Assembly: GCF_009914755.1 (NCBI RefSeq)
Contig: NC_060928.1
Length of the DNA stretch: 64,000 bases
Direction: 5' to 3' (one strand)
From: the human T2T-CHM13v2.0 reference genome, Homo sapiens
Below the pieces are notes generated by a model that was not told the DNA's origin, searched no databases, and saw only the letters and a list, made by a program, of their open reading frames with translations. This document shows positions 4,953-10,132 of this stretch, piece after piece (the first letter of the stretch is position 1; each line of letters opens with the position of its first letter). The translations under genes and the position numbers were made by a program.

Positions 4953-6253
4953 TATAGAAGTGATTTTCTGTGAGAGTATGTTTTAATTTCTTCCTTTCTG
5001 TGTATTGTGTATCTGTTACAGGTTTTTGTTTTGTGGTTGCCATGAGGCTTGCAAAAAATATATTATAACAAATTACTTCAAACAGATGATAACTTAACTC
5101 TGATTATAAAGAAAGGAAAACAAGCAAAGAAGCAAAGAGAACACTAAAAAAAGTCTACTCTTTAATTCCATTCACCCTTCTTTTTGACGTTTGATCGTTT
5201 CTATATGTATCTTTTCATACTCTCTATATCTTAAAAAGTTGTAATTATTATTTTTGATAGGTTTGCCTTTTATTTATTTACTTTTTTTACTAAAGATATA
5301 AGTGGTTTGTTTACACACCACAATTACAGTGTTAGGATAGTCTGTCTTTTTTGTATACTTACTACTACCAGGGAGATTTCTATATTCAGATGATTTCTTT
5401 TTGTTAATTAGCATCATTTTCTTTCTGATTGAAGAACTCCCTTTAGCATTTCTTATAAGACAGGTCTGGTGTTGAAATCCCTCAGCTTTTATTTGTCTGG
5501 GAAAGCCTATTTCTCCTTCATGTTTTAAGGATCATTTTGCTGGACATAATGTTCTAGGTTGGATTTTATTTCCCCTGCACTCTTAATATGTCATCCCACT
5601 CTCTCTTCACCTGTAAAGTTTCCACTGATAAGACTACTACCAGACATATGGGAGCTCTTCTATATGGCATTTCCTTATTTTCTTTTAAAGCTTTTAGTGT
5701 CCATTCTTTATCCTTGACCTTTGACGGTTTTATTATTTTATGGCTTGAGGTGGTTTTATCTCGGTTGAACCTGCTTGATGTTCTATAAACTTACAGGACA
5801 CAAATATTCATCTCTCTCTCTAGGCTTGGAAAGTTCTCTGTTATTATTTCTTTGAATAAATTTTCTACTTTGATCTCTCTCTCACTCTCTCCAATTTCTA
5901 TAAAGCCAATCACTCTTAGATTTTCCCCTTTGAGGCTTTTTTTCTAGATCTTGTAGTTGTGTGTCTTTATTTTTTTTTCTTTTCTGTCTGTGTATTTTCA
6001 TATAGCCTGTCTTCAAGTTTGCTATTTCTTTATGCTTAGTCAATTCTGCTTTTAGGAGACTGATGTATTTTTCAGTTTGTCAATTGAATTTTTAGTTCCA
6101 GAATTTCTGCTTGATTTTTAAAAATTATTATTCCAGTCTTTTTGTTGTGTTTCTCTGATAGAATTCTAAATTCTCTGTGTTATTTTCAAGTTCACTGACC
6201 TTCCTATAGACAGCTATTTTGAATTCTCTGTCTGAAAGGTCACATATCTCTAA

Positions 6254-6613
<360 letters not shown>

Positions 6614-6877
6614 TCCTTTCATATTCTTAATGCTTGTGGACATTTGTCAAGGTCTAGGCATTGAAGAGATAGGTATTTATTTTGATCTTGAGAGTCTGGG
6701 CTTGTTTGTACTGGTCCTTGAAAAGGCTTTCCATGTGTTTAGAAGGGGTTGAGTGCTGTGATCTAAGCCCGTGGTCATTGCATCCATATCAGCACTAGGG
6801 GGCTCCCTAAGCTCAGGAATGCTGCACCCTTAAGGGACTCCTAGAGGGAGCGGCAGGCTTGAGTAAGATAAGAAAGA

Positions 6878-6904
6878 AAATTCGTGAAGCCTTCCGTATT
6901 TTTT
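6878..6904 (+). pseudogene. RNU6: 3'-terminal fragment of U6 snRNA (5' part of a U6/L1 chimeric retrocopy)
   Basis: aaattcgtgaagccttccgtatttttt vs U6 3' end AAATTCGTGAAGCGTTCCATATTTTT (2 mismatches), joined directly to L1 3' sequence. Confidence 0.8.
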
Positions 6905-7020
6905 GGAAACCATCATCCTCAGCAAACTAACACAGGAACAGAAAACCAAACATCGCATGTTCTCACTCATAAGTGGGAGTTGAACAATGAGAACACATGG
7001 ACACAGGGAGGTGAACATTA

Positions 7021-8441
7021 TGAGAGCTGCTGGCAGTCCTCACAGCCCTCGCTCGCTCTCGGCGCCTCCTCTGCCTGGGCTCCCACTTTGGCGGCACTTG
7101 AGGAGCCCTTCAGCCCGCCGATGCACAGTGGGAGCCCCTTTCTGGGCTGGCCAAGGCCGGAGCCCACTCCCTTAGCTTGCAGGAAGGTGTGAAGGGAGAG
7201 GCGCCAGCGGGAGCCAGGGCTGCGCGCGGCGCTTGCCGGCCAGCTGGAGTTCTGGGTGGGCGTGAGCTTGGCGGCCCCGCACTCGGAGCAGCTGGTCGGC
7301 CCTGCAGGCCCTGGGCAATAAGGGGCTTAGCATCCGGGCCAGCGGCTGCGGAGGGTGTACTGGGTCTCCCAGCAGTGCCAGCCCGCCGGCGCTGCGCTCG
7401 ATTTCTCACCGGGCCTTAGCTGCCTTCCCGTGGGGCAGGGCTCCAGACCTGCAGCCCGCCATGCCTAAGCCTCCCACCCCCTCCATGGGCTCCTATGCGG
7501 CGGGAGCCTCCCCAACCAGTGCCACCCCCTGCTCCACGGCACCGAGTCCCATTGACCACCCGAGGGCTGAGAAGTGCCGGTGCACGGCACAGGACTGGCA
7601 GGCAGCTCCACCTGCGGCCCCAGTGCGGGATCCACTGGGTGAAGCCAGCTGGGCTCCTGAGTCTGGTGGGGACGTGGAGAACCTTTATGTCTAGCTCAGG
7701 GATTGTAAATACACCAATCGGCACTCTATATCTAGCTCAAGGTTTGTAAACCCACCAATCAGCACCCTGTGTCTAGCTCAGGGTTTGTGAGTGCACCAAT
7801 CGACACTCTGTATCTAGCTACTCTGGTGGGGCCTTGGAGAACCTTTGTGTCCATACTCTGTATCTAACTAATCTGGTGGGGATGTGGAGAACCTTTGTGT
7901 CTAGCTCAGGGATTGTAAACGCACCAATCAGCGCCCTGTCAAAACAGACCACGCGGCTCTACCAATCAGCAGGACATGGGTGGGGCCAGATAAGAGAATA
8001 AAAGCAGGCTGCCGGAGCCAGCAGTGGCAACCCGCTTGGGTCCCCTTCCACCCTGTGGAAGCTTTGTTCTTTCGCTCTTTGCAATAAATCTTGCTACTGC
8101 TCACTCTTTGACTCCACACTGCTTTCATGAGCTGTAACACTCACTGCGAAGATCTGCAGCTTCACTCCTGAAGCCAGAGAGCCCACGAGCCCACCGGGAG
8201 GAATGAACAACTCCAGATGCACTACCTTAAGAGCTCTAACACTCACCGCCAAGGTCTGCAACTTCACTCCTGAGCCAACGAGACCACGAACCCACCAGAA
8301 GGAAGAAACTCCAAACACATCTGAACATCAGAAGGAACAAACTCCAGGTGCGTCACCTTAAGAGCTGTAACACTCACCACGAGGATCCACGGCTTCATTC
8401 TTGAAGTCGGTGAGACCAAGAACCCACCAATTCCAGACGTA
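7021..8441 (+). mobile_element. LTR12C (ERV9) solo LTR
   Basis: Starts tgagag..tgctggcagtcctcacagccctcgctcgctctcggcgcc; GC/CpG-rich U3; tandem ctagctcagggattgtaaa..ccaatc units; U5 repeats (gtaacactcacc); ends aacccaccaattccagacgta; 4-bp TSD atta at 7017-7020 and 8442-8445. Confidence 0.95.
7690..8090 (+). promoter_or_regulatory. LTR12C enhancer/promoter module: five CCAAT boxes, GATA, TATA-like AATAAAA, downstream polyA signal
   Basis: CCAAT at 7714, 7755, 7796, 7924, 7962; GATA 7989-7992; AATAAAA 7997-8003; AATAAA 8083-8088. Activity is not shown by sequence alone. Confidence 0.7.
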
Positions 8442-10132
8442 ATTACACAGCGGGGCCTGTCGGGGAGTCGGGGAAAAGGGAAGGGAGAGCATTATAACAA
8501 AAACCTAACACATGCCGGGTTTAAAACCTAGATGACGGGTGGATAGGTGTAGCAAACCACCACCGCACATGTATACCTATGTAACAAACTTGCACGTTCA
8601 GCACATATATCCCAGAACTTAAAGTAATTTTTTTTAAAAGAAAGAATTCCCTGGGTTACTAAGGGAATTACTAAGCAAAGGCTCTCACTCCCTTCCCTCT
8701 CTTCCCGCTAATCAGAAGGAATTTCCCTTCCTGTTAGGCTGCCTGGAGTTGGGGGAGGGCAATTCTGTGGCCACCACAGCTGGGAGTGTGCTGGGTAATC
8801 GAGGGCAGCACAGTACTGGGTCTTGTCCAAGGCCCATGATGACTACTACCTGGCTACTGCCGATGTTTATTCCACGACCAGGGGCTCTTTTGTCAGTAGA
8901 TGGTGAATCCAGCCAGAAATGGATCCTTCCCTTCAGGATAGCAGATTCCCTTCTGTCCCAGTGTGGGTCTAAAAATGTCATTCAGGAGCTCAGACCTGGA
9001 ATTAGGGCCTTCAGAAATCTGCCTAGTGCTTTATTTTACTGTAGCTGAGCTGGAAACCAAGTTGCACGACAATGTTTTTGTACTCTTCCCTGTCCATTCT
9101 CCAAGTGAAGAGTCTCCTCCTGAGCTGTACTGGATGGAGTAGGGGGAGGGATGAGATAGGCACTCCTTGGTTGCCACGGCTGGTGTTACAATGGGTCATG
9201 CACAACCCAAGTCCATTGCCCCTGAGACCAGTGCAGCTGGGACCAGGGCTTGCCCAATAACTGTAATCCTATGGCCTGACTGCCTCTCAGATTTATTCTG
9301 GGCCCCAGGCCACTTTAGTCAGTCAGTGATGAAACTGGCAGGGACTTGGTTTTCTCCCACTGGGGCAGGGCATTCCCCTCTAGCCCAGGGCTGGTCTACA
9401 TGCTCCCTCTGTGGCACCAGCAGAATTCTGCCGTGTTGTGCTTCACTGTGACACAGAAGTACCGAGTTCCAATGCAAAATTCCTCACTCATGTGGCTCTC
9501 TCCCCCAAGCACACAGATTGTCTCTCTTCAGGACACTGCCAGGGTAGATGGGAGAGGACTGGTGTAGGCAATGCAAGACTTGTCTTTCCTACCCTTTTCA
9601 ATGCCTTTTTCCTTGGTATTATGTTAAATCAAGATTATGTGATCACTCACCTGATTTTTGCTTCTTATGAAAGTGCTTTTTTGTGTGGATAGGTATTTAA
9701 TTTGGTGTTCCCACAGGGAGATACTTGCAGGAGTATTTAGCCATCTTTCTATACATTTCTCTCTCTTACAATAATATTTGAACCTTGGAAAACATGTTTC
9801 ACTCATTGCTTATCTTTTGAACAAATATATAAGATATTTATTTTCATTTTTTTCTTTCAAATATAATTAGCATTACACAAATTCCCATTGTGGACTTGTT
9901 CAGAAGTACATTGAATATATTTATTTATTTGGGTAAATTGGCATCTTTAGAATTTTTGGTCTTTTTATCCAGGGTTTTGACATGTCTCTGTCTCTTAGAT
10001 CTTTTAGTGACTTCGATAAAGTGGTACTATTTTTATCTTCTAGATTTTTACATAATCGTGCTAGTTTTATTCTTAAGTATTTTATATATTTTTGTTGCCC
10101 GAGTTAGATATATTTTATAATTGTTTACATAT

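What the first reader, a model, noticed from the sequence alone, without database searches (positions are those of the whole stretch)
6870..8646. 5'-truncated U6 snRNA/LINE-1 chimeric retrocopy hidden inside an L1MA and split by LTR12C
Seen: 6878-6904 (aaattcgtgaagccttccgtatttttt) matches the last ~26 nt of U6 with 2 mismatches, and its T-tract abuts ~300 nt of an L1PA 3' end. The whole unit is bracketed by aagaaagaa (6870-6878, 8638-8646), and the host L1M 5' sequence reads continuously once the unit is removed. Established: U6/L1 chimeras form either by RtcB-mediated ligation of U6 3' ends to L1 RNA fragments or by template switching, and described cases usually carry full-length U6. Inference: here reverse transcription stopped ~26 nt into U6, possibly at AATTC microhomology with the target. 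Such short U6 stubs would be missed by standard chimera screens and may be an under-counted class.
Basis: partly seen in the sequence, partly recalled or inferred. Interest (0 to 1): 0.8.

Follow-up and report, generated by a model that had tools for sequence, protein, structure and literature searches.

The report
Truncated U6 tag on L1 retrocopy
A 26-base tail of the U6 spliceosomal RNA sits fused to the front of a 309-base LINE-1 tail inside an older LINE-1, a rare, shortened form of a well-known retrotransposition by-product and otherwise ordinary junk-DNA history.

Summary
Window 6878-6903 equals U6 snRNA nt 82-107 (24 of 26) when aligned to real U6 genes from the same genome. Its T-tract runs directly into a 5'-truncated L1 3' end (6904-7020 plus 8446-8637). 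A solo ERV9-type LTR (7021-8441, ATTA duplication) split that L1 later.

The stub and L1 together are bracketed by AAGAAAGAA (6870-6878, 8638-8646). Paralogues of the host repeat carry this motif once and read straight through. The host is a minus-strand L1, with ORF1 at 5569-5943.

The 26-mer is neither L1 nor host sequence. Genome-wide, 205 places match it with up to 2 mismatches, against 0 for the reversed control. The U6/L1 junction itself is unique.

Best reading: one L1-mediated insertion of a U6-L1 chimeric template whose 5' end fell inside U6. The AATTC microhomology idea needs a 2-base indel and is not required.

Partial scans found only two further short U6-stub chimeras and two stub-poly(A) copies. 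The class is real but small.

This is a rare form of a known kind, and the interest is low.

The parts
6870..6878 (+). 5' copy of the target-site duplication AAGAAAGAA. The base at 6878 could equally be U6 A82.
   Evidence: The host paralogues carry this motif once.
6878..6903 (+). U6 snRNA nt 82-107, 24 of 26 identical, ending in the five T's of mature U6.
   Evidence: alignment to U6 genes. (205 matches against 0 control). (the only such stub in the genome at that stringency).
6904..7020 (+). L1 3'-end fragment, part A. The L1 is 5'-truncated at this point.
   Evidence: Identity is 97-98% to the best genomic L1 copies.
7017..7020 (.). ATTA, left copy of the 4-bp duplication made by the LTR element.
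   Evidence: L1 paralogues read ATCA here (8 of 9), so both copies share a derived T.
7021..8441 (+). Solo LTR of ERV9/LTR12 type, nested in the L1 fragment. The family name is recalled, not tested.
   Evidence: 39 other copies match at 87-92%; termini and 4-bp duplications in 4 of 5 other copies, with one imperfect.
8442..8445 (.). ATTA, right copy of the LTR duplication.
8446..8637 (+). L1 3'-end fragment, part B. It runs to the L1 terminus, including the subfamily's T-run and a 2-4-base A tail.
   Evidence: Identity to the best copies is 84-89%. The T-run before the A tail is seen in 4 of 9 aligned copies.
8638..8646 (+). 3' copy of the target-site duplication AAGAAAGAA.
5569..5943 (-). Remnant of the host L1's ORF1. 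It shows that the host L1 lies on the minus strand and that the insertion sits on its 5'-UTR side.
   Evidence: Pfam Transposase_22, E 5.4e-06 (5794-5943) and 0.0047 (5569-5790, below the curated cut-off).
6615..6869 (-). Host repeat, left flank of the insertion.
   Evidence: at least 1080 candidates, 74-79% identity..
8647..9100 (-). Host repeat, right flank of the insertion.
   Evidence: It matches in 18 of 19 paralogues, in most of them next to the left flank.

Best explanation
This is one L1-mediated retrotransposition event (target-primed reverse transcription). It copied a template in which the intact 3' end of U6 snRNA was joined to the last ~309 nt of an old primate L1 RNA.

Shown:
- U6 nt 82-107 lies in sense orientation and ends in its five T's.
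- The stub abuts the first base of a 5'-truncated L1 that runs to its own 3' terminus.
- A 9-bp target-site duplication brackets both parts together.
- The target is T-rich and pyrimidine-rich on the bottom strand (TTCTTTCTT/AT), a loose L1 endonuclease site.
- The site lies in the 5'-UTR side of an older minus-strand L1.
- An ERV9-type LTR later integrated into the L1 part with a 4-bp duplication.

Inferred:
- The U6-L1 join was made either by RtcB ligation of U6 (2',3'-cyclic phosphate) to a 5'-OH L1 RNA fragment, or by template switching of the L1 reverse transcriptase.
- The copy ended about 25 nt into U6. Either cDNA synthesis or 5'-end joining stopped there, as in the ordinary 5' truncation of L1 insertions, or the U6 RNA was already cut.

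The sequence cannot separate these sub-routes. The element has no evident function.
For: - U6 identity: 24 of 26 against U6 genes of the same genome.
- Specificity of the 26-mer: 205 genomic matches with up to 2 mismatches, against 0 for the reversed control.
- Not L1: 11 of 11 L1 copies read differently upstream of the junction.
- Not host: 13 of 13 aligned host paralogues lack it and carry the duplicated motif once. Left and right flanks overlap by 16 bases in paralogue L037, as a duplication predicts.
- Junction form: it matches published genomic U6/L1 chimeras, which have U6 ending in 5-7 T, a 5'-truncated L1, a TSD of 6-19 bp and an EN-type site (PMC6789731, passages).
- L1 integrity: the L1 part is one element split by the LTR.
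- Independent examples of the same architecture:
  - L055: a 14-16-nt U6 stub, 1.34 kb of L1 and a 9-bp TSD.
  - L070: a 30-nt U6 stub, then a high-copy repeat starting at the first base after the T-tract, then poly(A) and an imperfect ~18-nt TSD.
Against: - No orthologous empty site could be examined, since no primate genomes are held. Single-event insertion therefore rests on paralogues and on the duplication.
- The poly(A) tail is only 2-4 A's and merges with the A-rich duplication.
- The duplication is low-complexity (A/G).
- The endonuclease site is only a loose match.
- The two L1 pieces differ in divergence from the same seven copies: 92-96% for part A against 85.5-88% for part B. This is unexplained.
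- Rfam's own U6 model does not report the stub.
Confidence: 0.88

Rival explanations
1. Same single event, but the truncation was at the RNA level. A pre-existing 3' fragment of U6, cut near nt 82, was joined to the L1 RNA, and the reverse transcriptase then copied this short template to its very end.
For: The 2025 preprint argues that tRNA halves and U3 fragments enter L1 chimeras as already-cut RNAs (passages). In the minimum-energy fold of U6, nt 82-84 are unpaired. That fold is weak evidence, because it is not the known U6 structure.
Against: Nothing in the DNA distinguishes this from ordinary 5' truncation. The other stubs I found start at different U6 positions: about 92-94, 78, 76 and 81. 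That argues against one preferred cleavage site.
Confidence: 0.2
2. The duplication is really 12 bp (AAGAAAGAATTC). In this reading the cDNA annealed to the target through AATTC. Only U6 nt 88-107 (20 nt) would then be unambiguously U6, and the two extra A's at 6877-6880 would be a later slippage.
For: Host paralogues read GAATTCCCTGG at the site. Some paralogue alignments of the left flank run on to 6883-6887. U6 has AAATTC at nt 82-87.
Against: This reading needs an ad hoc 2-base insertion. The 9-bp reading explains every base without an indel, with at most one A of overlap.
Confidence: 0.12
3. A daughter copy. An existing genomic full-length U6/L1 chimera was transcribed and retrotransposed again, this time 5'-truncated inside U6.
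For: Genomic U6/L1 chimeras are transcribed in human cells (PMC6789731, passages).
Against: No other locus in this genome has the same U6-L1 junction. A 33-base junction pattern with up to 3 mismatches gives 1 match, which is the window itself, and 0 in the control. In one search only the window matched query bases 1-44.
Confidence: 0.04
4. A full-length U6/L1 chimera later lost U6 nt 1-81 by deletion.
For: None specific.
Against: The stub abuts the intact 5' duplication copy. A deletion would have had to remove exactly the U6 head and nothing of the 9-bp repeat.
Confidence: 0.03
5. Chance resemblance, or the 26-mer belongs to the L1 or to the host repeat.
For: L1 upstream of the junction shares a 6-base word (TGAAGC) with U6. 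L1 also has an internal U6-like 16-mer elsewhere (L061; its L1 identity is by eye only).
Against: The reversed-pattern control gives 0 of 3.1 Gb, against 205 real matches. 11 of 11 L1 copies and 13 of 13 host paralogues lack the 26-mer.
Confidence: 0.01

Closest known systems
Human U6/L1 chimeric retropseudogenes (Doucet 2015 PMC4476161; Moldovan 2019 PMC6789731; Buzdin 2002/2003 seen only in a reference list)
   Same: U6 lies in sense orientation. Its intact 3' end and T-tract join directly to a 5'-truncated L1 that reaches its own 3' end. One target-site duplication surrounds both, at an L1 endonuclease-like site.
   Different: Only 26 of the 107 U6 bases are present. The described human cases are, in the passages I read, full-length or predominantly full-length U6.
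Platypus U6-L2 chimeras and opossum U6-RTE associations (Doucet 2015, passages)
   Same: A 5'-truncated U6 segment lies upstream of a short LINE 3' piece.
   Different: Those involve another LINE clade (L2, RTE) with TSDs of 1-9 bp or none. Here the partner is L1, with a 9-bp TSD.
Ordinary 5'-truncated L1 insertions and 5'-truncated U6-poly(A) retrocopies
   Same: The copy stops short of the template's 5' end. I found two U6 3' stubs of 30 and 24 nt followed by A-runs (L071, L072).
   Different: Here the truncation point falls within the first ~25 nt past a U6/L1 RNA junction. As a result, the insertion looks like a plain short L1 unless the 26 bases are recognised.
tRNA-half, U3 and 5S fragment/L1 chimeras (preprint 10.1101/2025.02.02.635956, passages)
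   Same: A fragment of a small RNA is fused to the L1 5' end within one TSD.
   Different: Those fragments have recurrent break points and are often antisense. The U6 stubs seen here start at scattered positions and are sense.

Membership tests
U6/L1 chimeric retropseudogene | U6 sequence lies directly 5' of an L1 sequence, in the same orientation. | tested here: met
   U6 82-107 is at 6878-6903 and the L1 starts at 6904, both on the + strand.
U6/L1 chimeric retropseudogene | The U6 3' end is intact, with a T-tract (5-7 T) at the junction. | tested here: met
   Six T's stand at 6899-6904. Five belong to U6 and the sixth is either U6 or the first L1 base.
U6/L1 chimeric retropseudogene | The L1 part is 5'-truncated and reaches the L1 3' terminus with an A tail. 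| tested here: met
   The A tail is only 2-4 bases.
U6/L1 chimeric retropseudogene | One target-site duplication brackets U6 and L1 together. | tested here: met
   The duplication is 9 bp and occurs once in 13 of 13 aligned host paralogues.
U6/L1 chimeric retropseudogene | Insertion is at an L1 endonuclease-type site (TTTT/A on the bottom strand). | tested here: inconclusive
   The bottom strand reads TTCTTTCTT/AT. It is pyrimidine-rich but not the consensus.
U6/L1 chimeric retropseudogene | Full-length U6. This is typical rather than strictly defining. | tested here: not met
   Only nt 82-107 are present. One search shows the bases upstream are not U6.
U6/L1 chimeric retropseudogene | Both parts are absent together at the orthologous empty site. 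| not testable with these tools
   No primate genomes are held. Paralogues of the host repeat served as a surrogate.
Solo LTR of ERV9 / LTR12 type | A high-copy element about 1.4 kb long, with a TG... start, an ...ACA end and a 4-bp duplication. | tested here: met
   39 other copies at 87-92%; it starts TGAGAG, ends GACGTA where other copies have GACACA, and is flanked by ATTA/ATTA. The subfamily name LTR12C was not tested.
Host: old L1 (L1M-type) 5' region | L1 ORF1 lies downstream on the same strand, and the sequence is a high-copy diverged repeat. | tested here: met
   Transposase_22 on the minus strand at 5569-5943; at least 1080 candidates at 74-79%. The subfamily (L1MA) was not tested.

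The most novel reading that the evidence does not exclude
Short U6 3' tags (about 14-30 nt) at the 5' ends of otherwise ordinary truncated L1 insertions may be the visible tip of a larger population. In this reading, many plain 5'-truncated L1s began as U6-ligated (RtcB) fragments of L1 RNA, and their cDNA simply stopped before reaching U6. The ratio of stub-bearing to full-length-U6 chimeras would then measure how often reverse transcription or 5' joining fails per base on such templates. The scattered stub starts could also mark pause sites on modified or structured U6.
Probability: 0.1. Interest if true: 0.45.

Novelty: new member of a known kind. Interest (0 to 1): 0.25.

Why it matters
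It matters little for biology at this locus. The element is a dead, nested retrocopy, and no function is suggested.

Its modest value is methodological. U6/L1 chimeras can be 5'-truncated to a tag too short for RepeatMasker-based or BLAST-based screens, so counts of chimeric events are lower bounds. Such tags could be recovered by aligning the bases just upstream of L1 5' truncation points, inside the TSD, to the U6 3' end.

My partial scans suggest the missing class is small: a handful of loci, not hundreds.

Tried and rejected
- Rfam scans of 6000-9500 and 6850-6935 at E<=10 gave no U6 hit. This says nothing either way for a 26-nt piece.
It was re-sent at 35 places.
I then sent 19 stop-free minus-strand ORFs of the 34 listed on that strand (63 on both strands). 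Two of the 19 matched L1 ORF1.
- The scan for stubs starting at nt 72-82 was barely above its control, 27 against 22. Loci could not be cut for all 27 hits. I examined only 3, picked by eye, so no frequency can be taken from it.
- An MFE fold of U6 does not reproduce the known U6 structure. I draw nothing firm from nt 82-84 being unpaired.
- I considered and rejected an independent earlier insertion of the 26-mer. It has no duplication or A tail of its own, and the 9-bp repeat lies outside it, not between it and the L1.
- Subfamily naming, dating against a consensus and orthologue comparison could not be done.
- The supplements of the three papers were not opened. They may list this locus or other truncated cases.
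Full report
**What is there**

To avoid relying on memory, I fetched real U6 genes from the window's own assembly with Rfam family RF00026. That search gave 48 matches over the cut-off, and ten loci were kept.

A local alignment places window 6878-6904 on U6 nt 82-107 plus one extra T, without gaps and with two mismatches: G95 to C and A99 to G. Rfam's own scan does not report U6 here even at E<=10, so a family search is blind to a stub this short.

**Is it more than chance?**

By my arithmetic, a match of at least 24 of 26 at a given site has probability about 7e-13. That is about 0.004 expected over both strands of 3.1 Gb.

Measured, the 26-mer with up to two mismatches occurs 205 times in the genome (98 forward, 107 reverse). 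The same pattern read backwards occurs 0 times.

I then added five 'not-U6' positions at nt 73, 75, 77, 79 and 81 to the pattern. With a total of two mismatches allowed, exactly one place in the genome matched, and it is this one. So among the genome's near-intact U6 3' ends, this is the only one that begins at about nt 82.

**The L1 part**

- Genome searches with 6860-7020 give L1-type high-copy matches that all begin at query base 42-47, mostly 45, which is window 6904.
- In 11 of 11 L1 copies inspected, the 50 bases upstream of that point are unrelated to the 26-mer. The stub is therefore not L1 sequence.
- The second piece (8442-8640) matches L1 3' ends at 84-89%.
- In the same paralogous copies the two pieces are contiguous. 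In L023, for example, they fall at 1798-1684 and 1685-1501.
- The T-run before the short A tail is seen in 4 of 9 aligned copies.
- In total the L1 contributes 117 + 192 = 309 bases and reaches its natural 3' end. Only 2-4 A's precede the downstream repeat.

**The LTR**

- A query spanning 6985-8485 matched 39 other genomic copies at 87-92%, mostly over query bases 37-1454.
- Comparing the ends with five other copies shows the usual TGAGAG start. The window's end reads GACGTA where the others read GACACA.
- Four of the five other copies have clean 4-bp duplications, and one is imperfect.
- Here the duplication is ATTA (7017-7020 and 8442-8445). L1 paralogues read ATCA at that spot in 8 of 9. 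Both copies therefore share a change that predates the LTR's arrival, which is good evidence for a true duplication.
- The name LTR12C is plausible from memory but was not tested.

**The host and the target site**

- The left flank (6615-6880) is a diverged high-copy repeat, with at least 1080 candidates at 74-79% identity.
- In 18 of the 19 paralogues kept, the right flank (8647 onward) also matches, in most of them next to the left flank. In L037 the two alignments overlap by 16 bases, as a duplicated target predicts.
- A multiple alignment of 13 paralogues reads straight from ...GGTAAGAT through one A/G-rich motif into TTCCCTGG.
- In the window, AAGAAAGAA stands on both sides of the unit, at 6870-6878 and 8638-8646.
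- Two minus-strand ORF fragments at 5794-5943 and 5569-5790 match the L1 ORF1 domain Transposase_22, with E 5.4e-06 and 0.0047. The second is below the curated cut-off.
- The host is therefore a minus-strand L1, and the insertion lies on its 5'-UTR side, antisense to it.

**Mechanism**

The architecture is that of published U6/L1 chimeras. Moldovan et al. describe 16 genomic cases with U6 ending in 5-7 T, a variably 5'-truncated L1, TSDs of 6-19 bp and an endonuclease-type site. They propose RtcB ligation of U6 (cyclic phosphate) to 5'-OH L1 RNA, without excluding template switching (PMC6789731, passages).

The only departure here is that the copy ends about 25 nt into U6. Because the 9-bp repeat lies outside the stub, the stub and the L1 arrived together, and the truncation happened at or before integration.

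No parent locus with the same junction exists in this genome. A 33-base junction pattern with up to three mismatches matches only itself.

The DNA cannot tell two pairs of alternatives apart:
- whether the join was made by ligation or by template switching;
- whether the shortening was incomplete copying or a pre-cut U6.

**The AATTC idea**

The target after the duplication reads TTCCC, and the 5' junction reads AAGAAAGAA-AATTCG, with four A's. Aligning U6's AATTC to the target's GAATTC would give a 12-bp duplication, but it needs two extra A's to be explained away. A 9-bp duplication with at most one A of overlap explains every base. I rate the microhomology version at about 0.12.

**Is there a hidden class?**

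Published screens would miss this locus:
- Doucet et al. set 97.5% identity, at least 26 nt and a TSD of at least 10 for human U6, and put 5'-truncated hits in a hand-curated bin (PMC4476161, Methods section).
- The 2025 preprint's census needs a RepeatMasker-annotated small RNA within 50 bp of the L1 (passages).
- In the passages I read, 5'-truncated U6 heads are reported only for platypus U6-L2 and opossum RTE.
- Human U6 heads are called 'predominantly' or 'often' full length.
- A full-text search for 'truncated U6' with 'retrotransposition' returned only these two PMC papers. I did not open any supplements.

My own scans were partial.

Scan of the last 16 U6 bases plus non-U6 positions upstream (17 hits against 4 in the control; all 17 examined):

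| Hits | Reading |
|---|---|
| 4 | Indel-bearing full-length pseudogenes |
| 1 | L055, a clean case (details below) |
| 1 | L061, which lies in what looks to me like L1 interior (untested) |
| 11 | Look random |

L055 has a 14-16-nt U6 stub, 1.34 kb of a young-looking L1, a (TAA)n tail and a 9-bp duplication GAAACTTAG with two bases of overlap. An L1 copy reads differently upstream of its junction.

Scan for longer stubs (27 hits against 22 in the control). I fetched only three hits, chosen by eye. All three are U6 3' stubs:
- L070: nt 78-107, followed from the first base by a repeat with at least 1646 candidates, then poly(A) and an imperfect ~18-nt duplication. The repeat's family was not named by any tool.
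- L071: 30 nt of U6 followed by an A-run.
- L072: 24 nt of U6 followed by an A-run.

The class exists but looks like a handful of loci.

**Verdict**

This is a rare, shortened member of a well-known kind of retrocopy, of the sort expected from the ordinary 5' truncation of L1-mediated insertions. It carries a small methodological lesson and no sign of function.

Noticed in passing
window 8378-8415 (minus strand): The first exon of the predicted lncRNA LOC105377444, taken from the hub's gene table, lies inside the 3' part of the plus-strand solo LTR. Its start therefore sits in the LTR and reads antisense to it.
   Followed up: no
window 6904-7020 versus 8442-8640: The two halves of the same L1 fragment differ in divergence from the same seven paralogous copies: 92-96% against 85.5-88%. 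This is unexplained. The 3' half may simply be a more variable region.
   Followed up: partly
window 8653-8675: The host repeat's right flank carries a ~12-base local duplication (GGGTTACTAAG / GGAATTACTAAG) that is absent from 13 of 13 paralogues.
   Followed up: no
window 6311-6612 (minus strand): A full Alu sits in the host L1 just left of the insertion. Rfam reports it as SRP-like and mir-1268 hits below the gathering scores.
   Followed up: no
L055 (G000:C2:68457735-68457769 and 1.4 kb downstream): A second short U6 tag: 14-16 nt of U6 fused to 1.34 kb of a young-looking L1, with a (TAA)n tail and the 9-bp duplication GAAACTTAG.
   Followed up: yes
L070/L073 (G000:C8:90940780-90941330); L071 (C6:32779436-32779720); L072 (C6:6368880-6369170): L070 is a 30-nt U6 stub fused to a high-copy repeat, with poly(A) and an imperfect ~18-nt duplication. 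L071 and L072 are 5'-truncated U6 stubs (30 and 24 nt) followed directly by A-runs.
   Followed up: partly
genome-wide list: The A99-to-G change seen in the window's stub (CCGTATTTTT) also occurs in at least 3 of the first 100 listed U6 3' ends. It could be a source-gene variant rather than decay.
   Followed up: no
L012, L013, L016, L018: Several of the best-scoring full-length U6 copies in the genome are followed right after the T-tract by sequence that looks like L1 to me. These would be ordinary full-length U6/L1 chimeras. I judged this by eye only.
   Followed up: no
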